Part shown: piece after piece, positions 12,358 through 37,586 of the stretch
Layout of the letters: each line of letters opens with the position of its first letter
Numbering within the stretch: position 1 is the first letter of the stretch
Origin: Abditibacteriaceae bacterium
GTDB lineage: Bacteria; Armatimonadota; Abditibacteriia; Abditibacteriales; Abditibacteriaceae
Direction: 5' to 3'
NCBI GenBank assembly: GCA_031372065.1
Contig: JANMKN010000198.1
Coordinates: forward strand, 1 to 38,732
DNA: 38,732 nt
Program-made: the position numbers and the translations under genes
The notes under the pieces: model-generated
What the model was told of the DNA's origin: nothing
What the model saw: only the letters and a program-made list of their open reading frames with translations
Databases searched by the model: none

Positions 12358-12470
12358 GGGAAAGGCAGAGTGTTTATAAAAAATGCCCTCTGGAAACATG
12401 ATCCCAGAAGGCACGCGGCGGGTGGAATACCCTTACTTCTCAACAAAACGAAAAATAATAGCGTAAAAAA

Positions 12471-12512
12471 TCGGGATGGCCGGATTTGAACCGACGACCT
12501 CCTGACCCCCAG
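12471..12512 (-). pseudogene. 3' half of tRNA-Pro(GGG); probable att-site duplication
   Basis: The minus strand reads CTGGGGG TCAGG AGGTC GTCGG TTCAAAT CCGGC CATCCCG A: anticodon loop, T arm and acceptor 3' strand. No D arm or 5' half is adjacent. Confidence 0.88.
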
Positions 12513-12746
12513 TTATGGATGTGCCAAGCGATATTGACACGATTTTAATGCTTATTTCCCGCTCAATTGGGTTCTTCTCTATCCTCAAATTGAGAACAGT
12601 AAGCGCTTGTTTACTGTCGTTTAATAAGTATACTTCCCGCTTTGCTTCTTGGCCTTATTTATATGATTTATGTGCCTCCGCGCAAAGATTGGCTGTGATT
12701 TCGAACCATTAATAATTAGAATTTAAAAGTGGGAATTTCAGATGAG

Positions 12747-12867: not shown

Positions 12868-14547
12868 TTACAGAGTGTATTGCCAATATGGTTCGGCATT
12901 TATTTCCAAATAAAGTGTGCTATTGGCCGACTCAATCTCTCTCCAGCGATTGGCAGATGCTATCTTTTGGTGAGCTTCGTAAAATGCAGGAGATGTGAGG
13001 ATTTGTCCTTTTTCTGCAATGCCGCTCAAACGAGACGCAAAGATTACCTCTGTCCCTAAGACAGTCTCCTCTTGAAACGCCGTAGGCCCAATATAACCTG
13101 ACGCAATTTTCCCATATCCGATTCCAATACCAATACCTTGAAAGACCTCATTGAGTTCGGGAGTTAAGCTAATTTCTTCTCCAATGATAGAGCAAGCAAT
13201 TCTCATAGCCTGTTCGACCGTTTGCTTAGCAGGCCCTTCTAAGACTATCATTGCGGCGTCACCAATAAATTTATCCAATCTGGCCTGAGGTTCAATCGCA
13301 CGCATACGCCTCACAAATATCTCATTTAACTGATTGGTAAAGTCAACTAAGGCCTTGAGTCCGCCTTCGCGCTGTAACTGGCATGTCGCGGCCGTAGATT
13401 TACGCAGGTCAGCAAAAATAATGCACGCCTCAACCTCACGAGGAGGTTGAAGTGTGGGATGCAGAGTAACCTTCTTTCTATCTCCGATTTCGAATAAGCG
13501 CCAGTTGATGGTGCGGTAAGCTCGCGCGACGTGGTGCAAATATTCCACGGCTTCAAGTTCAATGGATACATGGCCAGAATAATATTTCATACGTTCTGTT
13601 CCCATATATTGTTTAGGAACCTCTTCTAAATAAAACCAAAGGTAATCATCGAAAGATTCTGCCGGATTGAAATAACCAGGAGCAAGGTCTGCGGCATGGT
13701 GAAGGCTATGATCAGATAAGTGAGCACCATAAATTGGCAAAATAAGCTCCTCACCATCCTTGAATTCATGGGGCAACATACGCCCCTCATCATTATCCCC
13801 ATTTTTTCGTTCACCATCTTTGAGAATGAGACAGTGTCCTATATCTAGATTTAGGCCCACCCAATCAGATGTAAGGTAGCCGCGTTGGATAGCATCGTTA
13901 ATTTTGAAACTCAAACGTTTCAGGTGTTCAACGCTGCGTAAAAGGAAACTCTGGCCGGGTTCCAGTTCCAAGGCAATGCCAGAAGTAGGCAAACTGCCAA
14001 ATTGCTCTTTATAAGTATTAGCCACATCTATTAAAGACTGGCGAAGGCGATTTAGTGCCTCATCATCACCGTCAAAGTAGTGATCGTTCTCTTGTAAAAC
14101 TGGCCTTAGTGCTCCTCGATATGAGTAAATACGCCGTCCAGTGCGTATTTGGATGCAAGGTAGCCGTAAACATTCGGCAACGCGTAATAGAGTCACAAGA
14201 GACTGAATCGCAGTTTGACGAGCCGGTGATCCTACAGGTTCAGAGATACCAGGAAAGCTTGTGGTAAACGAAACAACTTTGATGCGTGTGCGAACTTTAT
14301 CTTCTGCTTCAGCAAGTTGTTCCATGAGCCAATTCAGAATTCGGGGAGCATTCGTCAACTCCCACTGGTCGCCATGAAGTTTTGCAACGGGATTTAAACC
14401 TTGGGCCAATTCATGAATATCTGGCATATCGGGCCAATAAATATCCAGTGCGTGGACACCAGCTTCAGCCAAAAGAGCTGCGCTTCTCGCTAATCGGCGA
14501 TTAAAGCACGACGTAATAACAGCTATTTCTCCTGTATTAGTGTTCAT
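12868..14547 (-). CDS. Xylose isomerase/AP-endonuclease-2-like TIM barrel fused to a class III nucleotide cyclase
   Basis: TIM metal motifs IALELEP, LNLDIGH, HLSD and SIELE. Cyclase motifs IIFADLRKST, LDKFIGDA, GIGIG.G and VLG.EV..ASRL...A..GQIL. Confidence 0.85.
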   Translation of the reverse strand: MNTNTGEIAVITSCFNRRLARSAALLAEAGVHALDIYWPDMPDIHELAQGLNPVAKLHGDQWELTNAPRILNWLMEQLAEAEDKVRTRIKVVSFTTSFPGISEPVGSPARQTAIQSLVTLLRVAECLRLPCIQIRTGRRIYSYRGALRPVLQENDHYFDGDDEALNRLRQSLIDVANTYKEQFGSLPTSGIALELEPGQSFLLRSVEHLKRLSFKINDAIQRGYLTSDWVGLNLDIGHCLILKDGERKNGDNDEGRMLPHEFKDGEELILPIYGAHLSDHSLHHAADLAPGYFNPAESFDDYLWFYLEEVPKQYMGTERMKYYSGHVSIELEAVEYLHHVARAYRTINWRLFEIGDRKKVTLHPTLQPPREVEACIIFADLRKSTAATCQLQREGGLKALVDFTNQLNEIFVRRMRAIEPQARLDKFIGDAAMIVLEGPAKQTVEQAMRIACSIIGEEISLTPELNEVFQGIGIGIGYGKIASGYIGPTAFQEETVLGTEVIFASRLSGIAEKGQILTSPAFYEAHQKIASANRWREIESANSTLYLEINAEPYWQYTL

Positions 14548-16040
14548 GATGTCACCTCTGTCCCTTGGTCATCCAAATCCACGATCACTAAGCGATCATT
14601 TTGGATATGTAAAAGGCGCCCGTAGCCTTCCATGCCCTGTTGCACTCCCACATATTTTTGTCCCTCTCGTGCTTCCACGAACACACGAGCAATACGAGGC
14701 ACCTTAGATGCTGGTCGCCTGGGATATTTTGTTGTAGCGTTATAAAAATAAGCCATGTTATATGCCACTGGATTAGCCTCATCCAGTGGCATATTCGTCC
14801 TAGAGAGCGAAAACAGCCACATATAAGAGGGCAACTGGTCTTCTGGGATTAAAATTTTTAGGCTGTTGATGGCAATGCGCATATCGACCGCATCCAACAA
14901 GCCTAATCCAGCAGTCAAAGAACGGCGAAGTCGGCGATAAAAGTGCCTCTTGGACACGAGTTCAACATGCCACGGCAATGTTTCTTGCAATGTATCCATG
15001 TGACAATTTTTGAGAGGGTAGCGGACATCACGAGGCACCACGGCAATAGCAACTGCTTCCTGTTCCTCGCCCTTATCAAACCAAGACATACCTTGAAATA
15101 GCATCGGCCAGGTTGCTTCCAAGTAAGGGCCAACAAACGGATCATGATAAACGAATGTCGCTTCATTATCGTCATTATATCCCGTGCCGATTAAAAGAAT
15201 AGAATGCCTCTCCCACCCCGGTGGAGGTGAGGGATATGCAGGGTAGAGCTTCGCAAAGTCAATATGTAACATAACGGGCAAGCCAGCCTCAATATGCTGT
15301 TGAATAAGAGTAAGAAATTCGGTTGCAGCCTGTAAGTCACTGTGTTCCTCACTTTTTAGCCTTAGCCATGCGATATCTAGACCCCACAAGTTGCAGTTTC
15401 CCTTGCGTAGTATGTTAAGTGAATCGGAAGGACTTAGCCCTTGAGCTTTAATTACGGTAGGCTTAATTGGTTTAGGCCCCCAACCAATACGATCATTGCG
15501 CAAATTCATCCATAATACCATGTCAAGGGAACCTAGAGGTCGCGAGTCGTAAGGTATCATCGTTATCATTGCCATATAAAGGCACGCGTGAGAGCAAAAA
15601 CCGCCGAGAGGGAAGGCTGGCATCACATAAGGCAAACACCAGAAATAAGGTTCTCCATATATCTGCGACAATTCGCGGGCGCCGGGCAGGTTGTAGCGAG
15701 AACTTAACATACGAAAGGGTGGAGCTAAAAAGGCATCAGCGATCGCTGGGATATCAGTATCCCCAGCTTCTCTTGGACGGACGTTGGCATAACCAATATA
15801 ACGCCCATGATGACAAGGGCCATCTTCGAAAAGATGAACGCGGGTAACCCATCGCTCTGGTTGAGGGCGCTGCAAAAATTCCAGCTCATTGCGCCACCAT
15901 TCAGAGGGTGCGCGCCGACAATCGCCAATATGCAGATTTCCATCAAAAGCCTGCTGAAGTAGTTCTGTTACAGTCTCAGCGTGCGGAGGAAGCGATAAGG
16001 TATCTTTTGACTTCTCCAGAGTGTGATAAATGCTTTTCAT
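14544..16040 (-). CDS. Papain-like (C39-type) cysteine peptidase-fold protein
   Basis: Putative triad GFCSHACL (Cys), HSILLIG (His) and FVYHDP..GPY (Asp), plus IEAGLPVML. Overlaps the cyclase start by 4 nt (ATGA). Confidence 0.75.
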   Translation of the reverse strand: MKSIYHTLEKSKDTLSLPPHAETVTELLQQAFDGNLHIGDCRRAPSEWWRNELEFLQRPQPERWVTRVHLFEDGPCHHGRYIGYANVRPREAGDTDIPAIADAFLAPPFRMLSSRYNLPGARELSQIYGEPYFWCLPYVMPAFPLGGFCSHACLYMAMITMIPYDSRPLGSLDMVLWMNLRNDRIGWGPKPIKPTVIKAQGLSPSDSLNILRKGNCNLWGLDIAWLRLKSEEHSDLQAATEFLTLIQQHIEAGLPVMLHIDFAKLYPAYPSPPPGWERHSILLIGTGYNDDNEATFVYHDPFVGPYLEATWPMLFQGMSWFDKGEEQEAVAIAVVPRDVRYPLKNCHMDTLQETLPWHVELVSKRHFYRRLRRSLTAGLGLLDAVDMRIAINSLKILIPEDQLPSYMWLFSLSRTNMPLDEANPVAYNMAYFYNATTKYPRRPASKVPRIARVFVEAREGQKYVGVQQGMEGYGRLLHIQNDRLVIVDLDDQGTEVTS

Positions 16041-16980: not shown

Positions 16981-18966
16981 TTAGGAGACATACACCAGAG
17001 ATGAAGCATATATCTTGTCAAAGACGGGCTGCCAGAGCGCCCAATCCTTGGCCGGGGCCGAAACCGAGATCACATAGCTGTTCCAGCCATCGGTATAGCC
17101 CAGAAGTCGCTTGTGCAGGCGCGGGCTACCCTCTTTGTCCATTTCGTAATCCCACACGCTGGCCGCCTGCCCTGCCCAAAGCGTGCTGCCTAAATTCAAG
17201 CGGCGATAAGCCTTGCCAAAGCGCCGTTTTAGCTCCGCCTCCGCGCCGCTCCAGTTGATTGGCTGCGGGGGAATGGATTGACTGCGCGCGCCGACTTCCA
17301 AGAGCATGAAAACCGAAGCCAGCGTCGAACGGGAAAACAAGCGCCGGTAGCGCCCTTCACTTTGCGATTCGGCCCGCCACAAAGCGGGAACGGTCGCGCG
17401 CAAGGTGGGTCGCCCGTCCACCTGCCTTGCTTCCCAGTTGCCGCTATTCACGCGTGCCACTTCGCCTTGGCAGCGGCGGGTCTGCTCCTCGTTCAATTGC
17501 GCCAGCATCGTTTTATCCCCGGCCTGCGCTTCCGCCTGCCTTTCCGCCTGCGCCAATTGCCAGCCCAATTGCTCCACGCTGTCGGACGACGAACTTTCGT
17601 CGCTGTTGAGGCGCCATAACGCCACCAAGTCCTTGCTAAAACTTTGCAGCGCGGCGCGGTTGGTTTTGAGATTGGCTTTCAGGTAAGAGGCGGCCCCAGC
17701 CCCATTGCCCGCCTTGAGACGGGCCAACAGTTCTCTGGCCTGCGGGCTGCTTTGGCCGATACGATCCCGCGCGCGGCGCAAGACAGCGCTGCCGCCCCAG
17801 AGAGTAGCTTGGGTAACGAGGTCACCAGAACGCAAAATCCCGGCATGACCATCGGCATAGATAATGGGTGCTTGCGGCCCCAGCCCATCGCCATTATGCC
17901 GCAGATCGAAGTTGCAATCCGCTGTTTCAACTTTCCCGGAAGTCTGCCGCGCGGCAAAGGAAGGCCACGAGGGATAGGGCGGCAAGAGCGACAGATCATG
18001 CTGGGTGCCGCCATCAGCCAGCAATAGGGTGGCAGTGGGAGCATCCGCTTCCGAGCCTTTGGCAGTGGCTAACACAGGGTTCAAGGCATAGGACGAAACC
18101 AAGCCTTGTGCTGTTACTTGTGATGCCGCGCCTTGTGACGCTGTGGGCACAGGTGGCCCCACCGGACAGATCAAATCCTCTGCCTTGGCGCGGCCCCGTA
18201 GCAGCGATACCCATGTCGCGCGCTGGCCTTGTTTGCTTTGGTAATCCACGGGCGGAAAGCGCCCGTCGTAATCCTGCGCATAGGCCGAGAGCGCCAGCGC
18301 CACGGCGCGAAGGTGCGTGCTGCATAGTTCCTGCTTGCCCGCGCCGGTATAGGGATAATAGGCTTGCGCAATCCCGGCAAGCACGGGCGGCCCGGTCAAG
18401 CGCCCAAAGGCCAGCGCCACACAGCAAGTGCCCACCAGCGCCAAGGCGCGGTTGAGCGTTGGCAGCTCAGACCACAGCGTGCGGTTGAGGAGCCGGGGCC
18501 GAACCGGACTGCTATAGTGCCACGGCAGCGCCAAATCCCTGGCGGATGTTGGTCTTGAATATGATGGTATGGATGGCGGTTCATGGCGTAAGGGAGGATG
18601 TGCGGGCTTAGGTGCTGGCTTAGGTGCGGGCAGGCGGGATTCTGTGGGCAAGTCGTTTGGCAGGCCTGACGACTCAGTTCTCAAATGTTCGGTTACTGAC
18701 CGCCCAGTTACTGACGGCTTGGTTCTTGGCAGCTCGGTTACGGGTTCGGTGAGGGGCATAGACGATCCGCTTGCTGAATCGCTTACTGGATTTACTGGCA
18801 CGGCTTGATACGGCTCAAGTCTTTGCTCTTGAACTTCCTCAGCAGCAGCGCCAAAGTCATCGGCAACCTGAGCATCGGTGACCTCCGTGACCTCCGCTGC
18901 TAATGCCTTCTTCTCTTCTGGGCCTGCCTGCTTATTCTGCTCGCTTAACACATCATCAAGTCGCAT
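16981..18966 (-). CDS. Membrane protein with DUF1559/H-X9-DG-like domain and possible C-terminal PsbP-like domain
   Basis: C..HLRAVALAL.AYAQDYD.RFP, SYALN and RH...YADGH motifs, after a Pro-rich N-terminus and a TM segment. Confidence 0.75.
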   Translation of the reverse strand: MRLDDVLSEQNKQAGPEEKKALAAEVTEVTDAQVADDFGAAAEEVQEQRLEPYQAVPVNPVSDSASGSSMPLTEPVTELPRTKPSVTGRSVTEHLRTESSGLPNDLPTESRLPAPKPAPKPAHPPLRHEPPSIPSYSRPTSARDLALPWHYSSPVRPRLLNRTLWSELPTLNRALALVGTCCVALAFGRLTGPPVLAGIAQAYYPYTGAGKQELCSTHLRAVALALSAYAQDYDGRFPPVDYQSKQGQRATWVSLLRGRAKAEDLICPVGPPVPTASQGAASQVTAQGLVSSYALNPVLATAKGSEADAPTATLLLADGGTQHDLSLLPPYPSWPSFAARQTSGKVETADCNFDLRHNGDGLGPQAPIIYADGHAGILRSGDLVTQATLWGGSAVLRRARDRIGQSSPQARELLARLKAGNGAGAASYLKANLKTNRAALQSFSKDLVALWRLNSDESSSSDSVEQLGWQLAQAERQAEAQAGDKTMLAQLNEEQTRRCQGEVARVNSGNWEARQVDGRPTLRATVPALWRAESQSEGRYRRLFSRSTLASVFMLLEVGARSQSIPPQPINWSGAEAELKRRFGKAYRRLNLGSTLWAGQAASVWDYEMDKEGSPRLHKRLLGYTDGWNSYVISVSAPAKDWALWQPVFDKIYASSLVYVS

Positions 18967-19050
18967 GATTTTCTTCTCCTGTCAGAAATGTTCTATCCGA
19001 ATACCTACTCAAAGGCGCTTAATCAAAACTGCCCATCCAATCCCAACCAC

Positions 19051-20145
19051 CTATCCAAACGGGGGCACCTGCTGGCCGCTGTCCACATCCCACCACACCG
19101 CTTGCAACACGCGCTGCGGCGTGATCTCTTCCTGCAAGGCGACGCGGAACAACTGGTGCGGGCCGCTATTCGAGGCGATGGCTTTGGCGATGGTTTGCAG
19201 CCGCTTGGCGGTGGGCGCCACAAACAGCACGCGAAAGCCCAGTCCCACCGGCACCTGAAAATCGCGGGCAAAGCCGCCACCTTGCCAGTAGGCTGCGTAA
19301 GCCCGGCACTTGGCGGCCAAGGTGCGCTGCGGCTCGGTGCCGCGATCCACTTCGATAAAGGCATGATGTCGCACGAAGCCGTTAGGCTGCAAACCAGTGA
19401 GTCGCACCAGAGCGCCGCCGTCCGGCACAAGGGAGACATTTTGCTTGCGCCGCCCCGCTTCTTCGAGCGTCACGCGAAAGCGCACCCGCTCCCCCGGCAG
19501 CCATTCCAACAGCCGATACTCCTCCGCACCTTTGGCGCCCTGCAAAGCATCGCCTTTGGCCCCCTGCAAAGCATCGCCTTTGGCCCCCTGCATACCTCCC
19601 TGCGTGGCCCCTTGCAAACTGAGGCGCATCTGCCCGATGGCGAGCAGATGATCCAGCGCTGCCGGAGCGGGCAAGCGGGAGGGGGGAGGGGCCGACACCT
19701 CGCCGTGTATCACGCTTAAAACCCGCGCTCCTTCGCTGTCCAGCAGGTAGACCGGCTCACGGCTGCCCTTGGCTAAAGGCCGCGCGATGCGGCGCAAGTA
19801 GCGATGGTGGAAAAGCAGCTTGAGTCGCCGGGTCAACGTCAGTCGTGAAACAAAACGATGCGGCACATGAGGGTCGCAGGCGCGCAGCGTTTCGAGTTGC
19901 GAGGTCGTCAAAAAGCGGTAGTGCCAGACATCTTCCAGCACGGCGAGGTCACGCGGCGTCAGCAAGATCGGAGGCGCCTGCGGCAGTGCTTGTGGCGCTG
20001 CCCCTCTTTGCCCACTCTTCTGTCTCGCCCCATTCACCGGCCCCGCTTCTCGCCCGGCGGCGCGTCGGTAGCGTGGCAAAGCGCGCGGCAAGGCACCCGG
20101 TTCATCGGTGGCGTTTTCAGTGGGAATCTGGCTGTCGTTTTTCAT
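19051..20145 (-). CDS. Replication-relaxation family protein
   Basis: LTPRD..VL..V...RFLTT.QL, RRL..L, H.L.I, VPDG and AFIEVDRGTE motifs. Internal 24-bp repeat (QGAKGDAL). Confidence 0.88.
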   Translation of the reverse strand: MKNDSQIPTENATDEPGALPRALPRYRRAAGREAGPVNGARQKSGQRGAAPQALPQAPPILLTPRDLAVLEDVWHYRFLTTSQLETLRACDPHVPHRFVSRLTLTRRLKLLFHHRYLRRIARPLAKGSREPVYLLDSEGARVLSVIHGEVSAPPPSRLPAPAALDHLLAIGQMRLSLQGATQGGMQGAKGDALQGAKGDALQGAKGAEEYRLLEWLPGERVRFRVTLEEAGRRKQNVSLVPDGGALVRLTGLQPNGFVRHHAFIEVDRGTEPQRTLAAKCRAYAAYWQGGGFARDFQVPVGLGFRVLFVAPTAKRLQTIAKAIASNSGPHQLFRVALQEEITPQRVLQAVWWDVDSGQQVPPFG

Positions 20146-20510
20146 CTTGCTTACGGTTCATTTTGTGGTGCATCTTGTCGTTTCACAGCACCTTGCGCTT
20201 GTATGGTGACTATATGTTTCGGTTATGCGTTTGCGTGCCCTAAACTGTATGTTTCTCACCGCATGGCCGAAACATACACCTTAAAGCGGCGTTTTACGCG
20301 TAAATCCACGCTTTTTCACGCATAAATTGTGCTTCTGCGCTTTGGCGCTCACTTGCAGCCAAATTACGGCGACATGTGCCATTTTCAGGGCGCGCAATAG
20401 GCACGCAAAAAGACACCTTGTGATTCAGGGTGCTGCATACCACTCGGCACAGGAATTTGCATGGCAGTTTGCCTTTCATTTGGTTAGCGGGTGGCGTCCT
20501 CTATGCAGTC

Positions 20511-23500
20511 CTATTCTGCCCCTTTTGCCCCTTGATGATCGTCTTGCTTTACTGGCTCATTTTGATTGTCCCGCTCGTTTTTCCCTGCAACTGCCCCCTC
20601 TGCCGTTTGCTCTGCCGCCTGCTCTGGCAGGCCAAAAAAGAGAGATTGAACTGGCCTTGTTGGGGCTGGTATTTGTTCGCTTGGTTGCTGTTGGCTTGGC
20701 GACGATTCTGCGGACGGCTGTTTAGTGGGCTGCTGTTTGCCCTGCCTGCTGGCCGGGCGTGCATCGGGCGGCGGTGGCAGTTTAGGGGACTGATTAACGC
20801 CATCTGAATCTTGGAACTCATCTGCGCTAACATCGAAGCTAACATCGAAGCTAACATCGAACTCCTCCTCTAATTTGCCCCCTTGTTGGCTTGGTAGTTG
20901 GCTTGGTGGCGGCGCATTTTTCACCGGGGCTTTGGCCGCGCTGGGCTTCTCCTTACGGGCCTCCTTGGTTGTTTCTTTAGTTGATCCTTTCGCTGCTTTT
21001 TCGGCCAACGCCGCTGCCTCCAAAAGTTGGCGCAGCGCCTCGTCACTCTCCCGCAGTTCGGCCTCTACAGCGGCCCGTTCGCGGCACAGCAGCGAATGCG
21101 TCCTCTGCCGGATATAGGCTGCCGAATCGGGATCGGCGCCCAGCGTGGCCGGTTCCAAGGGCGAGAACGTCTGAATCAAAAAGCTATCGGCAGAGCGCCC
21201 CAAGCGGGCCACCGCCTGCCCACGTTCCAAGTCGGTCAGTTCCTTGGCGCCATACAAGCCGCCGAACTCACCTTCTAACGCGCGCCCGCTTTGCGCGCTG
21301 ACGCGAAAGCTAATCAGCGTCCCGGCATTGCTGCGGATGGCGGTGGGTAGACCTTCGCCCAATTGCTCCAAAAACTGATTTGCCATCACTAAAGACAGGC
21401 CCGCCTTGCCCGCTTCGGAAAGGATCTTCTCGAAGCTGCTGACGACGAAGTTCTGAAACTCATCTACATAAAGCGTAAAGGGTGTTCGTTCCTCGCGGCC
21501 TAATCTTAAATTGTGCATGGCGGCGAGTTGGATTTTGGAAACCAAAAGCGCCCCTAAGAAATGCGCATTGTCTTCGCCGATGAGACTTTGTGCGAGGTTG
21601 ACCAGTAGAATTTGCCCCTCGCGCAGCATTCTCCCGGCGTGCAATTTGGTCTGTGCGCCGCCGATGATATTGCGCACGACGGGACTGGAAAGGAGAAGGC
21701 CCAGTTTGTTGTAAACCGGCGCGAAAGCTGAGGCGCTGTAGCCGGGAAATTCGCTGGCCCAAAAGGTGTGCAGATCGGGGTCGGGCACTTTGGTCAGCAA
21801 GGCTTTGCGGTAATCTTTGCTCGCCAAAAGTGGACGGATGTCGCGCAGAGTCAGCGTTTTCGCTTCATGCGGCGTGCTGTAGGGAGACGACTCCGCCGCT
21901 AACAACGTGAGCAGAGCGTGGCGCAGAATGTGTTCAAGGCGATCACCCCAACTGGCGCGAAAGAGGCGGTGCAGAATCGCCAGCAGGTCGGAAACCAAGA
22001 GGCGTTTTTCCCATTCGCCCTCGGCTTGCAAAAGTCCCAGAGCGGGCGGGTGCGCCGTGTCAGAGAGATCGAGATAGAACACGTCGCCCTCGCGATGCGG
22101 CGGCACGCGGCGCAAAACGTCGAGCGCCAAATCGCCATGCGGGTCAATCAGGCACAGGCCCCGGCCAGAAAGCATATCTTGGCAGATGAGGTTGAGGAGC
22201 AGCGTGCTTTTGCCCATGCGGGTGGCGCCCAGCATATAGAGGTGGCGGTTGCGCATCGCATCCGGCCAGCGCACGATTTGCGGGTTTCCGTCATGAGGTT
22301 CTTTTGCGGGAAAGTCGTTTTCACCAGAGGCGAGCAGGCCAAGCGCCGCGCCAGGAACCACCTTGAGATAATCCGGCAAGTCACGGCGGCGCGGGTCATA
22401 GCGCAGCAGCTTGGGATGCAGCAGGCGCTCAGAGGGCGGGTGCCACAGGCCCGCCAGTTCGCTTTGGGAGAGCAGCATCCCAACGCGACGACTGCGCCGG
22501 TCCAGCAGGTCGCGCACGCGGTCACCGGCACCGTAACCGTTCTCTCCATAGCCCGTGTCATCCAAAGCCACCAACGCATTGCCTTCTTCCAACTCGCTGC
22601 CCTCGCTCCCGTAAGCGTCCACCGCCGTGCCAATGCGTCGGCAAATATCAAAGGCGCGTTCGGATAAGTGATGTTCGGCTAAGTGATGTTCGGATAAATT
22701 GTGTGCTAAGGCGGCGCCGTCTGAATGCTTCTGGCGGGCGGTAAATGCAAAAACCCGCAAGGCCACCGCCCACAGCGGCGCGACCAACTTGTAACGCAGG
22801 GCACGCTGCAAAGGCGTATCGCGCGTGTTGGGATGGGCGGCCTGAGTGGCGCCGTCGAACTGCTGCACCAGTAGCGCAAGCGAGGAGGCCCAGTTGTTCT
22901 GCGCCGGCGTCACCAGCAGTTGCACGCCCCCCACTTCCCCGGTTTGCAAAGTGCCCAAGGCACTGAGCAACGTGCCGTGCGGGTCGGCGGCGAAGGTTTC
23001 AAAGAGTTTGAGCGGGCGATAAGCGGGGTGATACAAGCCGAAATCCACCGCGCGCTGGGCGACATCACATTCCAGCAGAGGCAACAAGGCGCGCCGCAAG
23101 GCATCGTTTAGCAGATAATCCTTGGAGGCCGGTTTTGTGGTTTGACAGTTTTCAGCGCCCTCAGCGCGTGCCAGCGGAAAACAGTGGGCAAGGGCGGCGA
23201 TAAGGGCCGCGCTATCTTGCCGCGCACAAGCGATTTGGTAGCGAATTGAGCGGGCCTCAGCGATCAGTTCCAGCGCCAGCGGATAACGCAAGTGACGCAG
23301 CAGCGCAAAGAATTCCCCTGTTTGCGCGGGCGTTACCTTTTGCTCAACGGGCAAGGCAAGCGTGAAAAAGTGGAGCGAGGCGTTTGTATACGTGTTATCG
23401 TCGCGATTATCGCGCGGCTGGGGCACGCCATGCCAGCCGCCGCTTATGGCGTCGGTGTGGGGATCGAAAGGCACAAAAGCCGGTTCCAGTGCGATGGGTT

Positions 23501-23666
23501 CGGGAAACAGGTCGTAACCGCGCAAGCGCCGCTCCCACGCGTAAAGCGCTTCCAAGCGCCCCTCCGCGCCCGCTGCCAAATCGGGCAGTGGCGCGTTCCA
23601 GTCCGCGACCCTCTTTTCTCGGTTTTTCCCGGCGTGCGCGCCGCCCTTATACCAGAACCAAGACAT
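20511..23666 (-). CDS. VirD4/TraD-like type IV coupling ATPase
   Basis: RNRHLYMLGATRMGKS (Walker A), IDPHGDL, LYVDEFQNF (Walker B) and LSEAGKAGL.L..ANQ..Q. Low-complexity tail. Confidence 0.88.
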   Translation of the reverse strand: MSWFWYKGGAHAGKNREKRVADWNAPLPDLAAGAEGRLEALYAWERRLRGYDLFPEPIALEPAFVPFDPHTDAISGGWHGVPQPRDNRDDNTYTNASLHFFTLALPVEQKVTPAQTGEFFALLRHLRYPLALELIAEARSIRYQIACARQDSAALIAALAHCFPLARAEGAENCQTTKPASKDYLLNDALRRALLPLLECDVAQRAVDFGLYHPAYRPLKLFETFAADPHGTLLSALGTLQTGEVGGVQLLVTPAQNNWASSLALLVQQFDGATQAAHPNTRDTPLQRALRYKLVAPLWAVALRVFAFTARQKHSDGAALAHNLSEHHLAEHHLSERAFDICRRIGTAVDAYGSEGSELEEGNALVALDDTGYGENGYGAGDRVRDLLDRRSRRVGMLLSQSELAGLWHPPSERLLHPKLLRYDPRRRDLPDYLKVVPGAALGLLASGENDFPAKEPHDGNPQIVRWPDAMRNRHLYMLGATRMGKSTLLLNLICQDMLSGRGLCLIDPHGDLALDVLRRVPPHREGDVFYLDLSDTAHPPALGLLQAEGEWEKRLLVSDLLAILHRLFRASWGDRLEHILRHALLTLLAAESSPYSTPHEAKTLTLRDIRPLLASKDYRKALLTKVPDPDLHTFWASEFPGYSASAFAPVYNKLGLLLSSPVVRNIIGGAQTKLHAGRMLREGQILLVNLAQSLIGEDNAHFLGALLVSKIQLAAMHNLRLGREERTPFTLYVDEFQNFVVSSFEKILSEAGKAGLSLVMANQFLEQLGEGLPTAIRSNAGTLISFRVSAQSGRALEGEFGGLYGAKELTDLERGQAVARLGRSADSFLIQTFSPLEPATLGADPDSAAYIRQRTHSLLCRERAAVEAELRESDEALRQLLEAAALAEKAAKGSTKETTKEARKEKPSAAKAPVKNAPPPSQLPSQQGGKLEEEFDVSFDVSFDVSADEFQDSDGVNQSPKLPPPPDARPASRQGKQQPTKQPSAESSPSQQQPSEQIPAPTRPVQSLFFGLPEQAAEQTAEGAVAGKNERDNQNEPVKQDDHQGAKGAE

Positions 23667-23696
23667 GGGTTTAAATCTTAGGGGTTGAAAATCCCC

Positions 23697-24446
23697 TTAG
23701 TTTTCCGCTGCCGGATTATCAATCGAGGAATGAGTCGGGCCGCTGGGCGGCACTGACGGTGGTAGCGGCATGGTCGTTGGCAATGGCATCACATAGCCAC
23801 CCTGTGCGTAGCCGCCTTGCCCATAGCCAGTGGGCAGAACGCCACCTTGCTTATATTTGGCGTAGAACGATTGCAGGACGGGACGGCGCTCATGCTCTTC
23901 CAATGGTTTCAGGCCGCGCTCTTCGGCATACTCGACCAGCACTTCCTGAATGGCGCTGTGAATGAGGGTCAGGCACATCTCTGTCACATCGAAGCGATAG
24001 AGCGTCAAAGACGAGGGCTTGAAAACGACAAAGTATTTGAGCAGCGGATGTTCCAGCCACAGGAATTGCTTGGAAAAGGCCCAGTAGGAAACAAAGAGGC
24101 CACCCGGCAAAGGAAAGGCATAGAGGTAAACCACCAAGTCATCGTAGCGAATAATCAGATAGCGGGGCCGCGCACCAAAGATAGTGCCGTTGCCAAAGAG
24201 GTGGCCGGGGCCAAAACCGACCTTGGAATCGGGCAGTTGCGCCTCGTTCAAGCGCTCTTTGAGGCGCTGGTAAACGCGGGCATAAAAGAGATCGGCGGGT
24301 TCGGATAACCCTTGCACAGGATAGCTCCAATGCTGGATAGTCCACTCGGCGCGCGGCTGCCCCCAACCATAGCAAGCTAAAATCAGCAAGATACATCCGG
24401 CGATGCCCAAACCTACTGATAGCAACGAATCCATAGTCGTTTCCAC
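23697..24446 (-). CDS. Hypothetical membrane-anchored protein upstream of the coupling ATPase
   Basis: N-terminal TM and Pro-rich tail; 30 bp from the next gene. Confidence 0.7.
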   Translation of the reverse strand: METTMDSLLSVGLGIAGCILLILACYGWGQPRAEWTIQHWSYPVQGLSEPADLFYARVYQRLKERLNEAQLPDSKVGFGPGHLFGNGTIFGARPRYLIIRYDDLVVYLYAFPLPGGLFVSYWAFSKQFLWLEHPLLKYFVVFKPSSLTLYRFDVTEMCLTLIHSAIQEVLVEYAEERGLKPLEEHERRPVLQSFYAKYKQGGVLPTGYGQGGYAQGGYVMPLPTTMPLPPSVPPSGPTHSSIDNPAAEN

Positions 24447-24574
24447 TCCGTGTTTACAAGGAATTTATTCTTTGCCAAAAACAACAACGGGAACATCAAT
24501 GCCAAAATATAACAGCTAAAACATAACCGCTAAAACACAACGAGCTACAACAGGTGCTGTTGATCAGCAAAGGA

Positions 24575-24623
24575 CGGCAGGGAAAGCCAACTGAATTCAG
24601 CCTGTATTGGGCATTCCCTGCCG
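24575..24623. terminator. Hairpin downstream of the 929-aa gene
   Basis: CGGCAGGGAA (24575-84) pairs with TTCCCTGCCG (24614-23). The loop is long and the U tract weak. Confidence 0.4.
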
Positions 24624-24631
24624 CTTCCTGC

Positions 24632-27421
24632 CTACCTCCCGTAACGGCGTAGGGCATCCAGTAGCGAACTGGCGGCGGGCGAGAGGCCGTTTGGCAATAC
24701 TTCCCGTGTTTCTGCATCAGTGGGCATCGCAATAAGCTTGGCTTCCACGCGATCCTTGAGGCTAAGGCGAATCAGAACCGGGCGGTGATCGCTGATTTTT
24801 TTGATGTAATCGGGAAACTCCTTGTCCGCTGCCACGATGAAGTAATCGCCCGCATCGTAATCTTTGGCTAAATTCGGCGACAGGAAGATATGGTCAATCA
24901 AGGAGCGCGGGCCTTTGACATACGAAAAGGCACCGTCTTCTTCATCCTTGGCCGCCAAAGGCGTGAGGTGAGGCGCAGCGGCGTTATGGGAGCCACCCGC
25001 TACCAAATCCGCGAAGTCACCGCTGGCTAAGGTGGCATTGACATCGCCGCCTAAAATCCAGTCGCCGTCTTCGCCCGCCTCAATCATGCGGCGCACCGCA
25101 GCGGCTAAAATGCGGCTGGCTAAACGGCGGCGCTTGCTGCCTTCGTCCATCGCTTTGAGATGCAATGGCACCAAGAAAAAGTCGAACTCTTCTTTGAAGG
25201 AATCCTCGCGGCTGGCCGAGCGGAAGTAATAAAGCGCCGGGTAACGGTCAAAGATTTTGCCTTCGACGACTTCGAGTTGCAAATCGCTAAAACCAGTAGG
25301 AAATGCGTCTTGGCCTTCCGCGCTTTCCAGAAACGAGCCATCGCCAAAGTCGCGGCTGCTCAGTTGCAACCACGCTTCGATCTCATTGGGCCAAGCGCGC
25401 TTTTCGCCTCGCACCGTTTTGCGGTTCCACATCAGTGCTGTGGCCTGTTTGCCGCGCCCGGAGTTCGGCTCGGAAAAGGCGCAGTCAAAATCCATGTGGT
25501 ATTTGCTGTTGAGGTGATCCACCAACGCCTGCGTGGCTTCGGCTCCGGTTTCTTCGAGCGACCAGATGTCCAGATTCATCGCCACGATCACTTGGGCGAC
25601 CTCATCCAATTTGTCTTCGAAGCGGTTGACCAGCCATTCGACGTTCCAAAAGCCGACATCCAAATCGTCGCTTTCGCCCCGATAGCGGTTGACCACCACT
25701 TCCACGCCGGTTTCGGGGTGCGCGGTTTCGCGGCCCAAAGCGCCGAAAAAGCCCATCAGTTCGTCGGTGCCTCCAAAAAGGGCCAACACTTCGCGCGCCA
25801 TTGTGGCTTCTCCCCCGCCACCATTGCCGTTACCATTGCCGTTTCCCCCATTGGTTCCCCCGCCATGAGCGAGGTTTTCCAAAAAGGCGGCGATGGCCGA
25901 GAACTTGATACCCTCGTTTTCGATGCGTCCCGAACCGTCATCGGCGCTGCGGCTGGCGTGGTGCAGGGCAATGGGCGACCACTCGTTGCTCATCACGCAG
26001 GAGCCGGAACTGCCGGGCAAAGTGTCCGAATTGTAGCGAACCGCCAAAAGGTTTTGATTGACGACCTGGTTCTCTTGCACTACGACCACTTTGGGATCGC
26101 CGTTGGGATGCTGAATGATGTTGGCATAGTCGCGCTCATTGACGACGCGGGCGCTGCGATCCAGCGGCACAAAACCAAAGGTATCACCCGGTTTGCCATC
26201 CACCCAAACGAACGTGAAGTCCAGCGCTTCTTGAGAGAGCGCGTTTTGAATCGGGCTGGTAATGAAAAGGCGCTCCGGGTTGAGGCGGTAAACGGTTTCC
26301 GTTAAGAGACGTCCATCCGGCCCCGTCTGGTAGTTGAATAGCGCCCGCCCATTGCGCGCCACTTCCACCGAATTGAGAACGTGATGGTTGGTGAGCAGAA
26401 TATTGGGCGACACCAAAAAGCCAGTGCCCGACCACGCGCCGCTACGTCCGTCGTAGCTAACGCCGGAGGTTTTGATTTTGCAGACGGCTGCGGCGCGCCC
26501 GGTGCCGACTTCCAAAAACCACGCGGGCAGGAAATTAACTTCTTCCACAATGGCTTCCAAAGTCAGCGGCGAGATAGCCATTTCCGCCACCGTTGTAGGC
26601 GCGGACGCGAGAAACGGCACATTCAGCGAAAGGTTCTCATTTTCCGAAATGGCGCCAGAGGAATAAGCGGCGGGCGCGGCCACTGCAAACGCTTCGGCTC
26701 TCCTGTTTTCGAAGTTGGCGCTGTCGCTATTGGCGATTTCGCGATTGGCGATTTCGGGAGCGACAAAGGGGCCGGGATCGGGCACGTTGTCTTTGCCGAT
26801 ACGCTTGCTCAGAAAATGTGCCACCAAGGCGCCCAGCCATGGGAGACGTGGTTTGAGCCATTCCGCCTGATCCCGCGCATTGAGATCGCCGAATTCGATA
26901 ACGAACTCGGCATCGGTGGTTTGGGTGAAGGCAAAGCCGTAGTAGCCGCGCAGGTTGGCGGTAAAGTTATCGCCCATGAAGCCAAAGGGCCAGTAGCGAC
27001 CATACAGCGCCTTCCATGCTGATGCCGCCGGTTTGTCAGTGGGGTCGTTATAGCCGACGCTGGCTTTGCTGCTGCCGTTTTCCGATCCGTCGAAATGCAT
27101 AAAGACGGCGACTTTGCAGCGATAACGCCCCGACAGACTGGCTTTGGCGCGGATCACGCTGACGCCTGCTTGCCGCAAAATGCGCGTCGCTTCGTTGGCG
27201 ACAACTGGCGTCCAGTCAATCTCGCGGCCCAGTGGCCCTTCAGCACCGGTGGCACCCGTGGTGCGCCCCTCGTGGCCGGCTTGGATAAAAACATCCGCTG
27301 TGGCCGTAATAGCGGCTTCCAAGTCCAGCGCATCTTCTGTTAGTTCATCCGGTGCATCATCGTCCAAATAACCTTCGTCAATCATCGAATCCTCTCCCGT
27401 AAAATAAGAATCAAACGACAA
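24632..27421 (-). CDS. Fusion of Amidase_3-like, trypsin-like serine protease and EEP (endonuclease/exonuclease/phosphatase) domains
   Basis: Amidase: IQAGH, REI, MHFDG and VIEFG. Trypsin: GTGFLV...LLTNHHV, LDF and DTLPGSSGS...ALHH. EEP: FWNVEW, LEE, LHLKA, GGDVN, IDHI and SDHRP. Confidence 0.88.
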   Translation of the reverse strand: MSFDSYFTGEDSMIDEGYLDDDAPDELTEDALDLEAAITATADVFIQAGHEGRTTGATGAEGPLGREIDWTPVVANEATRILRQAGVSVIRAKASLSGRYRCKVAVFMHFDGSENGSSKASVGYNDPTDKPAASAWKALYGRYWPFGFMGDNFTANLRGYYGFAFTQTTDAEFVIEFGDLNARDQAEWLKPRLPWLGALVAHFLSKRIGKDNVPDPGPFVAPEIANREIANSDSANFENRRAEAFAVAAPAAYSSGAISENENLSLNVPFLASAPTTVAEMAISPLTLEAIVEEVNFLPAWFLEVGTGRAAAVCKIKTSGVSYDGRSGAWSGTGFLVSPNILLTNHHVLNSVEVARNGRALFNYQTGPDGRLLTETVYRLNPERLFITSPIQNALSQEALDFTFVWVDGKPGDTFGFVPLDRSARVVNERDYANIIQHPNGDPKVVVVQENQVVNQNLLAVRYNSDTLPGSSGSCVMSNEWSPIALHHASRSADDGSGRIENEGIKFSAIAAFLENLAHGGGTNGGNGNGNGNGGGGEATMAREVLALFGGTDELMGFFGALGRETAHPETGVEVVVNRYRGESDDLDVGFWNVEWLVNRFEDKLDEVAQVIVAMNLDIWSLEETGAEATQALVDHLNSKYHMDFDCAFSEPNSGRGKQATALMWNRKTVRGEKRAWPNEIEAWLQLSSRDFGDGSFLESAEGQDAFPTGFSDLQLEVVEGKIFDRYPALYYFRSASREDSFKEEFDFFLVPLHLKAMDEGSKRRRLASRILAAAVRRMIEAGEDGDWILGGDVNATLASGDFADLVAGGSHNAAAPHLTPLAAKDEEDGAFSYVKGPRSLIDHIFLSPNLAKDYDAGDYFIVAADKEFPDYIKKISDHRPVLIRLSLKDRVEAKLIAMPTDAETREVLPNGLSPAASSLLDALRRYGR

Positions 27422-27445
27422 TCACATCAGGCACAGCGAATGCCA

Positions 27446-27593
27446 CGCTGTAACTGTCGTTTTGCAGCAAGTAGCGGGCGACTTCGGCTTTGGTGCTGCT
27501 GTCTTGCTCTTGCAACAACTGCGTGCCGTCCCACACTTCCAAGAGCGAGACACCGGTTTCCTCGCGCATACGGCGCAGACCATCGGCGGAATA
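27446..27593 (-). pseudogene. RHS stub (148 bp), homologous to 33342-33489
   Basis: Encodes YSADGLRRMREETGVSLLEVWDGTQLLQEQDSSTKAEVARYLLQNDSYS. Confidence 0.9.
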
Positions 27594-27664
27594 GACCACT
27601 ATAACCTGCTTCTCACTAGTTTTTATACACGCCAAATCAGAAAATCTAACACGCCTCACTTGAC

Positions 27665-28297
27665 TTAGTGAATGTTGATGCCAATTCTTGGAGAAACAAC
27701 CTTCTTCTTTAAAACGTAAATATTATCTTTTTTAAGTATTGCGCGAATTTTTGCAGACCAAAGGTTAGCTGGTGGTGGAACTAAAATTGCTTCCACCTTA
27801 TATGCACCCTTGGTCACTTTACGAGGAGGAATTGCTAGGGGATTGACATTGGTCTTGAGAACTTCACCTGGTCGTAGTGTAGTTAAGCCCCACAGTTCAG
27901 TCCTCCTAATTCTTATTTCCGCACCGTAGCTTTCAAGATTTGTGATTAGGTGCCCATTGTTGTCGTAGAAGGCAATTCTCAAATAAAGCGGAATCCTACT
28001 AAAAGCAATCTCCCGGTTACCAGTGTTGTGAATGGAAACCTGAAAAAGCGAACTCCTCAGTTCTTGAGAATAAACTGATTTCGGCCCTTGGAGAGTAATT
28101 ATCAGATCCGTAATAGGATCAGACTTGGAATTAACCACATTCGATGAGACCGTTGGCTGTTGTGCAAACGCAGCATCAGACAAATGGCCATTATCCGTGC
28201 CTTGGTTTAACGTAAACACATTAAAACCAAAATAGAAAGCAACAACCATAGCAGTCAAGTTGACACCCAGTTTTGTTCGATTCACAAAGACCCCCAT
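27665..28297 (-). CDS. Putative immunity protein 3 (secreted or membrane-anchored, beta-rich)
   Basis: AT-rich gene directly downstream of a toxin-like tip, with an N-terminal hydrophobic segment. Confidence 0.6.
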   Translation of the reverse strand: MGVFVNRTKLGVNLTAMVVAFYFGFNVFTLNQGTDNGHLSDAAFAQQPTVSSNVVNSKSDPITDLIITLQGPKSVYSQELRSSLFQVSIHNTGNREIAFSRIPLYLRIAFYDNNGHLITNLESYGAEIRIRRTELWGLTTLRPGEVLKTNVNPLAIPPRKVTKGAYKVEAILVPPPANLWSAKIRAILKKDNIYVLKKKVVSPRIGINIH

Positions 28298-28337
28298 TAC
28301 CCTATGGCTTTCAATTCATAATCATGACCTTACTTCA

Positions 28338-30506
28338 TCATCGCCAACATCTACTCCCATTGCGACCACGAAAACGAATATTATACAAGCAGCAAGCCCA
28401 TGCCTCATTCCTCTGCCTACTAATGTCAGTATCAGAACCACCATGAGAAACCCCACAGGCGTGGGCAAGTTCATGCAAAAACACCGCATCAAATGGTGCT
28501 ATGCTATGATCATAGGCATTGCCGCAGTTCACATGAGTTAAGTCATTCAGACAAATATTAACGACAGGAGAAATTCCTGGATATGGTTGGTTGTGGGGTC
28601 TGGCACCTGGGGTATAGCCACAATTGGTGGAACACATAGGGTCAGCGGCTGTTTGACATTTGACTATGCCCGTTTGGCGACAAAAGTTGCGCAAACATTC
28701 CAATCTGTTTGGTGTAAGTAATTGCAGATTAAGTGCATGGCGACGGCTTGTCTGCGTAATGCAATGATTTATTTGATTAAGAAGGCTTGGTGACCAAGCC
28801 CCCCTTATTGTCTCACAAAAACCTTCCACTTTCCTAACTATGTTGAGTGGGCAATCACTATCATAATTACAATAATGAGGATGTTGAGGTTTTTCTCCAG
28901 AGGAATCGAAGTTGATGACTGGATTATTAAATCCGTAACCATAGGATGTCTCGCCCTGCAATTGTTCCTCCAACCGCGCCTGACTTAGCCACAGGGCCAC
29001 ACCGGGCATATAATTTCGACCATGCAGGCGGCGTGGTGGATTCAAGTTTGGTGCTGGTTGGCCTACAAATGGCCGCCCCGGCTGCCAAGGCATGGGCATG
29101 GATGGCAAGGGCGTGGCAACCGCAGGAGCAGGCATCACTGGCGGCTGCACTATTGACACCTGCGAGAACGATGGTTGCGATGCCATTCCTGTTGGAACAA
29201 TTTGCAAGTGTGCAGAAGAAGCGCGCAATAGCACGGGCAACTGTGGCGCGCTCAGAGAGGCAGGGTTATTCAGCAAAGGAAGCGCACAAGCCTGAGTGGG
29301 AACAGACCAATGCGGCGCGTTTTGCAGCACCACTGGCTCTGTCCAATGGCCGTCTGAGCCTTGAAAGGCAATCTGCACGCGGCCTGCGGGTGTGCCGCTT
29401 AAACGCCAGTTGGCGTCCTTGATTTTTAACTTTGCCATGATTCGTCCAACCTCCAATTTTGCTTTGACGGGCAGGCCCGCCAAATACTGCGGGTATTTGT
29501 CTTGAAACGCTTCCAGCGGCGGCAATTCTTCCAATTCCGCCGCGATGTCAAAAGCACCATCGGTGAACCCGAAAGTGAGTTGCAAGCATTGGTCAATGGT
29601 TTGGCAGATGGCCTTGCGATCCGCGTAACCATACTGCCGCACGCTATCGGCTAACTGCTTTGCCAGTCTGTAAACCTCTGGTAATCCCCGCTCTAACAAT
29701 TTTAGAGCAGAGGCCACTTCTCCAACGCCACGCGGCGATGCCGAGGGTGCGCTTTCTTCGGTAGGATTCAATAGAGACGTGGCAATCGAGAGCGCGACAA
29801 GGGCCGCCTCGCGCCGGTAAGGGGGACAGTAGCCGGACGCGACAGCCGCCGCCAAGGACAAAATCGCTTCTCGTTGCTGCTCTGCAATGATGGTCATGTC
29901 GAAGCCGCGTTCTCGAATGACCTCATTGACCTTGCAATCCAAGACGAAGGACTGCACATATTGAAGCTGCCGCACTTTGCCCGCATCGGAGAGGCTGCGC
30001 AGCGAGCGGTCATCTTCGCAATCTTCCACCAGCGCCAGCCAGACGTGGGCTAATTCATGGGCCAAGATCGTCTCGTGCAGATGGGCCGCGTCCAGAAAGA
30101 ACAGAATTCTGCCGGGGTCAGAGGCGTCGTCCACCCAATGGCCGTGCGCATGGGCCTGCCACGAGCGCAGGTGCGGTAAGGTATCTACGAAGAGCAGGTA
30201 TTTGCTGGTGCAACGGTCCGTTTCGATGAAAAAATCCATCAACCGCTGCGAGAGATTTTGAGGAATGATGATCGGCAGGAGATCACGCGGGTCTTGCGCT
30301 TTGACAGGGCCGTTATCGCGCGCCAGAGACCCTAAATCCGGCGCGAACATATGGCCGTCCACCATCCACTTCATGCCATATTGGTTCGTCATCAGGGCAC
30401 CCATCGGCGGCAGACCATGCTGCATGGCCAGCCGGTTCCTGCGCTCCTTGAGAGCCAGAATGTCTTCTATGGAGAGAGAATTCGGCATCATTTGAGGACT
30501 GTTCAC
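28338..30506 (-). CDS. Chimeric toxin-like protein: HExxH domain, Pro-rich linker, degenerate RHS core end, and Cys-rich HExxH tip
   Basis: LAHELAH, then RNYMPGVALWLSQ...SYGYGFNNPVINFDSSG, then a tip with FLHELAHACG and 15 Cys. The DNA turns AT-rich at about 28930. Confidence 0.75.
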   Translation of the reverse strand: MNSPQMMPNSLSIEDILALKERRNRLAMQHGLPPMGALMTNQYGMKWMVDGHMFAPDLGSLARDNGPVKAQDPRDLLPIIIPQNLSQRLMDFFIETDRCTSKYLLFVDTLPHLRSWQAHAHGHWVDDASDPGRILFFLDAAHLHETILAHELAHVWLALVEDCEDDRSLRSLSDAGKVRQLQYVQSFVLDCKVNEVIRERGFDMTIIAEQQREAILSLAAAVASGYCPPYRREAALVALSIATSLLNPTEESAPSASPRGVGEVASALKLLERGLPEVYRLAKQLADSVRQYGYADRKAICQTIDQCLQLTFGFTDGAFDIAAELEELPPLEAFQDKYPQYLAGLPVKAKLEVGRIMAKLKIKDANWRLSGTPAGRVQIAFQGSDGHWTEPVVLQNAPHWSVPTQACALPLLNNPASLSAPQLPVLLRASSAHLQIVPTGMASQPSFSQVSIVQPPVMPAPAVATPLPSMPMPWQPGRPFVGQPAPNLNPPRRLHGRNYMPGVALWLSQARLEEQLQGETSYGYGFNNPVINFDSSGEKPQHPHYCNYDSDCPLNIVRKVEGFCETIRGAWSPSLLNQINHCITQTSRRHALNLQLLTPNRLECLRNFCRQTGIVKCQTAADPMCSTNCGYTPGARPHNQPYPGISPVVNICLNDLTHVNCGNAYDHSIAPFDAVFLHELAHACGVSHGGSDTDISRQRNEAWACCLYNIRFRGRNGSRCWR

Positions 30507-30518
30507 TTGCCTATGCTC

Positions 30519-30629
30519 CGTTTTGCAGCAGGTAGCGCGTCACTTCTGCTTTGGTGCTTGAATCCTTCTCCTGCAACAACTGCGTGCCGTCCCACACTTC
30601 CAAAAGCGACTGTCCGCTTTCTTCGCGCT
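30519..30629 (-). pseudogene. RHS stub (about 111 bp)
   Basis: Encodes REESGQSLLEVWDGTQLLQEKDSSTKAEVTRYLLQN, followed by GA and a stop. Confidence 0.88.
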
Positions 30630-30675
30630 GACGACATAATTTACACCTGAATAAGTTGACATTGCTATAGGCTCT

Positions 30676-31002: not shown

Positions 31003-31014
31003 ACATTCCTCGAA

Positions 31015-32016: not shown

Positions 32017-32083
32017 TTATTCTTAGAGTTCCTAAATAAAAGCGATTTTACCTTTGCAACACACAGGGATCAGGTTGTTTTAT

Positions 32084-32488: not shown

Positions 32489-32535
32489 AAAATGCGCTTA
32501 CATAAGCGCACAGGAAATACCCGACCACCACGCTA

Positions 32536-37475: not shown

Positions 37476-37586
37476 GTCATTCTCCTTAAACTTCTCATTC
37501 TTCTCTTGCCCAAGGCTAACCCTGTCTTGGCTTTGTCGTTAGCCTTATCGAGCTTTATCGCTGACAGGAGTTCTGCCGACAGGAGT

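What the first reader, a model, noticed from the sequence alone, without database searches (positions are those of the whole stretch)
12868..16040. Candidate new nucleotide-signalling or defence module: papain-like protease coupled to a TIM-barrel/class III cyclase fusion
Seen: two AT-richer genes overlapping by ATGA, the first cargo inside the att scar. The TIM barrel keeps all four metal-ligand motifs (E, DxxH, HxxD, E). The cyclase keeps both metal Asp residues, the DKF Lys and the Arg, but the canonical VNxASRL reads VIFASRL (Asn to Ile). Known: Pycsar uses class III-fold cyclases, and island edges are defence hotspots. This architecture has no visible cyclic-nucleotide-binding effector and matches no system I recognise. 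Inference: a protease-activated cyclase, or a cyclase plus sugar/nucleotide-modifying barrel producing a non-canonical messenger.
Basis: partly seen in the sequence, partly recalled or inferred. Interest (0 to 1): 0.78.

Follow-up and report, generated by a model that had tools for sequence, protein, structure and literature searches.

The report
Protease–TIM barrel module, optional cyclase
A papain-like enzyme and a metal-binding sugar-isomerase-like barrel sit together, adjacent or fused, in every full locus we could check in scattered bacteria, sometimes with an added nucleotide cyclase, and likely form an undescribed defence module in which the barrel, not the cyclase, is the protease's fixed partner.

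Summary
The two intact, AT-rich ORFs overlap by ATGA and lie just inside a 77-bp tRNA-Pro att duplication.

The conserved unit is papain-like enzyme + xylose-isomerase-like TIM barrel. They are adjacent or fused in 14 of 14 assessable loci, and all 30 hits of 800 aa or more among the top 150 papain homologues are papain–TIM fusions. The Cys-His-Asp triad is intact in 139 of 143 homologues, and ten barrel residues are invariant in 38 of 38.

The class III cyclase is optional: 7 of 13 loci, 2 of 30 fusions. It comes in two subtypes, and all 13 scorable copies lack the catalytic Asn. Distant papain relatives stand alone (6 of 6 loci). The pair is rare (7 of 401 genomes in its phylum, 0 of 26 family relatives). 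It has no conserved third gene and matches nothing in PADLOC except weak PycC similarity. It is not Pycsar.

Best reading (0.4): a conflict module whose protease is the executor, gated by the barrel, with the cyclase as add-on. No function was tested.

The parts
14544..16040 (-). ORF A, 498 aa: papain-like (C39/ZUFSP/phytochelatin-synthase-like) enzyme, triad C149-H279-D300; core about residues 110-340 with uncharacterised N- and C-terminal domains
   Evidence: no strong hydrophobic segment
13471..14547 (-). ORF B N-terminal domain (aa 1-359): xylose-isomerase/AP_endonuc_2-like TIM barrel; E194, E196, N233, D235, H238, H276, H284, D287, E330, E332 invariant
12868..13470 (-). ORF B C-terminal domain (about aa 367-559): class III nucleotide cyclase, D380/K426/D430/T495/R506 kept, Asn replaced by I502; optional in the family
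12437..12513 (-). att scar: exact 77-bp duplicate of the tRNA-Pro(GGG) 3' end whose intact copy lies on G000:C183 next to an integrase
16981..38637 (-). Core of the mobile element that carries the pair (relaxase-like gene, coupling-protein-like gene, Rhs arrays); a related core sits at tRNA-Leu in congener G266 without the pair

Best explanation
The two genes encode a papain-like Cys-His-Asp enzyme and a metal-site TIM barrel that occur adjacent or fused in scattered bacteria, and they likely form an anti-phage or similar conflict module in which the protease is the likely executor, the barrel its predicted metabolite-gated controller, and the cyclase an optional add-on that would supply or bind a nucleotide for the barrel. 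Shown: folds (predicted models), conserved active-site residues, linkage, fusions, optional cyclase, mobile-element position. Inferred: cytoplasmic complex, defence role, direction of control (barrel acts on a ribose- or sugar-phosphate-type ligand and licenses proteolysis of a host or phage target), and any cyclase activity.
For: Nested pattern: distant papain relatives, homologous over most of their length (hhalign 98%), stand without a barrel in 6 of 6 assessable loci, whereas the barrel family was never seen without the papain: 7 of 7 genomes among 401 and 7 of 7 loci found through barrel motifs with upstream DNA. 30 of 30 long hits are papain-TIM fusions. Both active sites are conserved at 23-25% mean identity. 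Patchy spread: 0 of 26 family relatives. Terminal cargo of a tRNA-integrated element whose inferred other end carries integrases, Mrr-like, WYL and type I-E CRISPR genes. Other loci lie near an integrase, SNF2 helicase and transposase (L078) or a TIR-CHAT gene (L022). Family cyclases sit on long branches, a trait the Pucsar preprint 10.64898/2026.08.12.744502 (section 5 read) reports for immune cyclases. No precursor peptide, transporter or metabolic gene recurs.
Against: No functional data. Several loci have ordinary neighbours: ribosomal genes (L020), FtsK (L018), cyclophilin-like genes (L025), RapA-like helicase (L069) (names read from sequence). Defence enrichment was not tested statistically. 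The barrel's best matches are sugar isomerases and epimerases, which are metabolic. One fusion (L018/P0053) lacks the catalytic Cys yet keeps the barrel residues, which fits a barrel that can work without proteolysis, or decay. The direction of control rests only on the nested pattern.
Confidence: 0.4

Rival explanations
1. Conflict module with the roles reversed: the papain senses infection and releases or activates the barrel, which is the toxic effector, an endonuclease-IV-like phosphodiesterase acting on DNA, RNA or nucleotides.
For: The barrel model matches endonuclease IV at Z 18.9-19.1, within about 2 of the sugar epimerases. Invariant H238, H284, D287 could form a further metal site. 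The window's clade has a basic RxGRR loop. The Cys-less fusion L018 keeps its barrel site.
Against: No conserved His in the N-terminal half of the barrel, where endonuclease IV has two Zn ligands (recalled). The profile's best solved match is xylose isomerase. The RxGRR loop is not family-wide (R135 in 10 of 38). No conserved cleavage motif in 30 linkers.
Confidence: 0.2
2. A non-defence modification or repair pair: the papain fold acts as an acyl-transferase, amidase or isopeptidase and the barrel as a keto-sugar isomerase or eliminase on the same small molecule or modified protein.
For: Top papain folds include phytochelatin synthase (Z 13.8) and isopeptidases PeiR, UfSP and ZUP1. Barrel matches are sugar epimerases, isomerases and glycoside hydratases. 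Fusion of two enzymes suits substrate channelling.
Against: No conserved substrate, precursor, transporter or regulator gene in 15 neighbourhoods. Very patchy spread, AT-rich, on a mobile element. It does not explain repeated association with divergent cyclases.
Confidence: 0.2
3. One reading: the protease activates the cyclase, and cyclase plus barrel make a non-canonical nucleotide messenger that is the output of the system.
For: Both metal Asp are kept in 14 of 14 family cyclases and the Arg in 12 of 13 scorable ones; the Asn is replaced in 13 of 13 but present in 15 of 15 ordinary cyclases. PMC4886424 (one passage read) notes active cyclases without this Asn. Cyclase-bearing barrels occur in at least two separated clades.
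Against: Cyclase absent in 6 of 13 loci and unfused in 28 of 30 fusions. No conserved receptor. The two subtypes differ at the base-specifying Lys (DKFIGD versus SFTGD), so one shared product is doubtful.
Confidence: 0.12

Closest known systems
Pycsar / Pucsar (PycC or PucC cyclase plus CNBD-TIR or TM effector)
   Same: Class III cyclase fold with two metal Asp; weak PADLOC PycC hits (best E 4e-6); Z 17-18.5 to PycC structures; long-branch cyclases in mobile context
   Different: No CNBD-TIR or TM effector; cyclase is fused to a TIM barrel and optional; closer in fold to CyaB and CyaC (Z 22-23); keeps adenine-type Lys and Thr in this clade
Xylose isomerase / sugar phosphate isomerase-epimerase superfamily (PF01261)
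   Same: TIM barrel with the E, DxxH, H, D, E metal pattern; profile hit to 6N98 at E 1.4e-5; Z up to 21
   Different: Glu at the position of the xylose isomerase EPKP Lys; HxxD in the beta7 loop; always tied to a papain-like gene; no sugar-pathway neighbours
C39-like / ZUFSP / UfSP / phytochelatin synthase / PeiR papain-fold enzymes
   Same: Cys-His-Asp order and fold, Z 12-14.6
   Different: 15% identity or less; extra N- and C-terminal domains; below the Pfam cut-off (E 0.016); nearest Atlas clusters are unnamed
PAACC + TIM-B systems (bioRxiv 10.64898/2026.10.19.760177, passages read)
   Same: A cyclase paired with a TIM-barrel protein in a predicted conflict system
   Different: TIM-B is of the deazaguanine transglycosylase type (PF14350) and is read there as an antitoxin; no papain partner in those passages; PF14350 was not hit here

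Membership tests
Pycsar/Pucsar | Class III cyclase with two catalytic Asp | tested here: met
   D380 and D430
Pycsar/Pucsar | Adjacent CNBD-TIR or transmembrane effector (PMC11224242, passages read) | tested here: not met
   No such gene among window ORFs and no conserved third gene in 15 neighbourhoods
Pycsar/Pucsar | Production of cCMP, cUMP or cGMP on infection | not testable with these tools
   Needs biochemistry
Canonical class III adenylyl cyclase | Lys and Thr/Asp base-specifying pair | tested here: met
   K426, T495 in the window's clade; not in the SFTGD subtype
Canonical class III adenylyl cyclase | Transition-state Asn and Arg | tested here: not met
   R506 kept; Asn replaced in 13 of 13 scorable family members against 15 of 15 controls with Asn
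AP_endonuc_2 superfamily (PF01261) | TIM barrel with conserved metal ligands on beta5-beta8 | tested here: met
   Fold, invariant residues, 15 of 22 members of A6 hit PF01261, the other 7 being generic cyclases; the window protein itself is under the Pfam cut-off
Xylose isomerase proper | EPKP Lys after the beta5 Glu | tested here: not met
   Aligned residue is Glu196, invariant in 38 of 38
Endonuclease IV | Two N-terminal His ligands of the first Zn (positions recalled) | tested here: not met
   No column with 8 or more His of 38 before about residue 229
MNIO/DUF692 RiPP enzymes | DUF692 profile match and a precursor or partner gene | tested here: inconclusive
   No DUF692 hit at E up to 1 and no recurring small ORF, but ORFs under 45 aa were not examined
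Papain-like (clan CA) cysteine hydrolases | Papain fold with Cys-His-Asp/Asn triad | tested here: met
   Fold; CHD in 139 of 143 covering sequences; triad geometry not measured
C39 peptidase proper | Pfam cut-off and ABC transporter or double-glycine substrate | tested here: not met
   16 bits against a cut-off of 24; no transporter nearby
Any PADLOC 2.0 system | Profile match of papain or barrel | tested here: not met
   None for window proteins or 13 homologues apart from PycC on the cyclase
DefenseFinder systems after 2023 | Model match | not testable with these tools
   Library not available

The most novel reading that the evidence does not exclude
Probability: 0.2. Interest if true: 0.88.

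Novelty: categorically new. Interest (0 to 1): 0.66.

Why it matters
The paper searches run here found no defence or signalling system that joins a xylose-isomerase-like barrel to a papain-like enzyme. The family offers natural one-, two- and three-domain versions (papain alone, papain–barrel, papain–barrel–cyclase, one of them a single 1056-aa chain), so the order of control can be tested directly. If the barrel reads or remodels a nucleotide, it would be a new receptor chemistry for cyclic-nucleotide immunity and would give a role to Asn-less class III cyclases. It also flags a large unnamed papain-like family (794 clusters at E up to 0.001). The rating 'categorically new' refers to the architecture; the function is untested.

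Tried and rejected
Pycsar membership: rejected, no effector.

Cyclase as the core: rejected, it is optional.

Autoprocessing at a fixed site: no conserved motif in 30 linkers by eye.

RiPP or sugar-catabolism cluster: no recurring neighbour; all-against-all BLAST of ORFs of 45 aa or more within 2.2 kb linked only L025 with its near-duplicate L026, plus one weak unrelated hit.

Phage origin: none of 15 pattern matches in viral contigs was confirmed, using one barrel pattern only; PHROGs hit only the cyclase.

Pattern scan of GTDB: 37 of 42 matches were chance; 5 were family loci, 2 of them repeats of loci already held. L028 is an ordinary sugar isomerase and was dropped. Four weak papain hits (E about 1e-4) were dropped; L014 is a generic C39-like protein and the other three were not studied further.

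No RNA holder was listed (three DNA runs, one study). The fusion profile found no solved relative. The N- and C-terminal domains of ORF A were not folded alone, so their folds are open.

Paper searches (listings only, except as cited) showed no description of this pair. Subscription papers, the original Pycsar paper (not held) and the bioRxiv supplements and figures (Pucsar Fig. 1A and Table S1, ParA supplementary data) could not be seen and might contain it.

Full report
Observation. They are among the most AT-rich 0.3-2.2% of 1689 long ORFs in the genome. Window 12437-12513 is an exact 77-bp copy of the 3' part of tRNA-Pro(GGG). The intact gene is on contig C183, followed by a tyrosine integrase. 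The pair is therefore the terminal cargo of a tRNA-integrated element. That C183 is the other end is inferred from the att orientation, since the assembly is broken. C183 also carries a second integrase, a serine recombinase, Mrr-like and WYL genes and type I-E CRISPR-Cas. In congener G266 a related element core follows tRNA-Leu and a serine recombinase, with no pair in that slot.

ORF A. The AlphaFold model (118 sequences, pLDDT 91) has a papain-like core: Z 14.6 to PeiR, 13.8 to phytochelatin synthase Alr0975, about 12 to C39, UfSP and ZUP1. C149-H279-D300 is intact in 139 of the 143 homologues, out of 150, that cover all three positions. It may be a protease, isopeptidase or acyl-transferase; the fold does not decide. 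The flanking domains were not resolved.

ORF B. The model (pLDDT 88) shows a TIM barrel (Z 17-21 across sugar epimerases, xylose isomerases and endonuclease IV) and a class III cyclase (Z 23.2 to CyaB). Ten polar barrel residues are invariant in 38 of 38 sequences. The profile's best solved match is xylose isomerase, with Glu where that enzyme has its EPKP Lys. No conserved His lies in the N-terminal half, unlike endonuclease IV (recalled). The cyclase keeps D380, K426, D430, T495 and R506. The Asn is replaced in 13 of 13 scorable family cyclases (P0007 is truncated) and present in 15 of 15 ordinary ones. A second subtype also lacks the Lys. One passage of PMC4886424 states that some active cyclases lack this Asn, so activity is open.

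Linkage. The papain profile finds 794 clusters at E up to 0.001. Among the best 150, all 30 proteins of 800 aa or more are papain-barrel fusions, and only two, P0056 and P0076, also carry a cyclase. A separate downstream cyclase gene cannot be excluded for the other 28, as their DNA was not seen. In DNA, 14 of 14 assessable loci have both domains: the window; six found through the papain (L018, L019, L020, L021, L022, L078); and seven found through barrel motifs (L023, L024, L025, L027, L041, L044, L069). L026 starts inside the barrel and could not be scored. A cyclase is present in 7 of 13 (window, L021, L022, L023, L044, L069, and as a separate tandem gene in L041) and absent in L018, L020, L024, L025, L027 and L078; L019 is cut. 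A barrel-profile search of 401 genomes of the window's phylum gave 7 hits, all beside the papain. Five of these helped build the profile, so only G356 and G391 and the lack of orphan hits are new information. Papain and barrel distances correlate over 42 pairs (Spearman 0.37, 0 of 2000 permutations), but 30 are fusions, 4 are the inferred pairs and kin are not independent. Cyclase-bearing barrels need at least two changes on the barrel tree; the cyclase tree cannot separate one origin from two.

Spread and context. The module was found in 7 of 401 genomes of the own phylum and 0 of 26 of the own family, 1 of 401 in the phylum of G401, 1 of 301 in that of G402 (the centre genome itself) and 0 of 301 in that of G403. 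More distant papains, homologous over most of their length, stand without a barrel in 6 of 6 assessable loci (L079, L081, L082, L083, L128, L129; L082 and L083 are near-identical; L080 is cut). No third gene recurs in 15 neighbourhoods. Some contexts look like islands (window, L078, L022), and others are ordinary (L018, L020, L025, L069).

Mechanism. The data form a nested series: papain alone, papain plus barrel, then cyclase added at the barrel's end. I did not search for the cyclase without the barrel. The simplest reading makes the papain the working core, the barrel a dependent partner and the cyclase a later layer serving the barrel. With the patchy spread, low GC and mobile position, I favour a conflict module in which the barrel binds or converts a nucleotide or sugar-phosphate ligand and gates the protease (0.4). 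Folds, residues, linkage and position are shown; defence, binding, direction and cyclase activity are inferred. The Cys-less fusion L018 counts against my reading.

Comparison. It is not Pycsar or Pucsar: no CNBD-TIR or membrane effector (PMC11224242 passages; Pucsar preprint section 5). It is not the PAACC/TIM-B pair, whose barrel is transglycosylase-like (passages). PADLOC gives only weak PycC hits and NCBIfam nothing near a cut-off. Eight paper searches listed no description; figures, supplements and subscription papers were not seen. This scan's earlier notes held nothing on the pair.

Verdict. Interest 0.66.

Noticed in passing
window 16353-16577 and 16562-16753 (-): Two short overlapping ORFs just upstream of ORF A with no homologue elsewhere in the genome or in fetched loci and no family hit; a 14-bp hairpin at 16313-16346 follows them.
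   Followed up: partly
window 12744-12777: Tandem 17-bp direct repeat between the att scar and the end of ORF B.
   Followed up: no
window 14760-14794: 17-bp-arm hairpin with a 1-base loop inside ORF A, about 210 bases before the start of ORF B.
   Followed up: no
window 16981-38637: Element core with a Replic_Relax relaxase, a TraD-like coupling protein, a trypsin-like protease fused to an endonuclease domain, and an Rhs gene with orphan tips sharing a 148-bp repeat; related cores in G266 (at tRNA-Leu) and G046.
   Followed up: partly
L130/L131 (G000:C183): After tRNA-Pro: two tyrosine integrases, a serine recombinase, a cysteine desulfurase scoring as DndA/SspA, Mrr-like, WYL and type I-E CRISPR-Cas. 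The window ends in a NifU-like gene at 38287-38637.
   Followed up: partly
L128:8580-12718 and L129:7844-10870: Two standalone distant papains lie beside a ThiF/E1 gene whose N-terminus looks JAB-like (label recalled), hinting at a link to ubiquitin-like systems; not seen in the other four such loci.
   Followed up: partly
L041:787-2049 (-): Separate gene with two tandem divergent cyclase-like domains directly after the barrel; Pfam and PADLOC miss it.
   Followed up: partly
L022:7787-9690, L018:8751-11363, L078:8551-10009: Possibly decaying copies: papain split into two ORFs in L022, catalytic Cys missing in the L018 fusion, barrel broken at a run of N and followed by a transposase in L078.
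   Followed up: partly
P0160, P0172: Weak Pfam 'Guanylate_cyc_2' (PF09778) hits fall on the papain domain, not on a cyclase: a naming trap for this family.
   Followed up: yes
window 11269-11562: Array of 21-bp-period repeats between the HD gene and the lactonase gene, with look-alikes on at least three other contigs.
   Followed up: no
window 356-1752: TIR gene next to a small RyR-domain gene, outside the element; already the subject of another finding.
   Followed up: no
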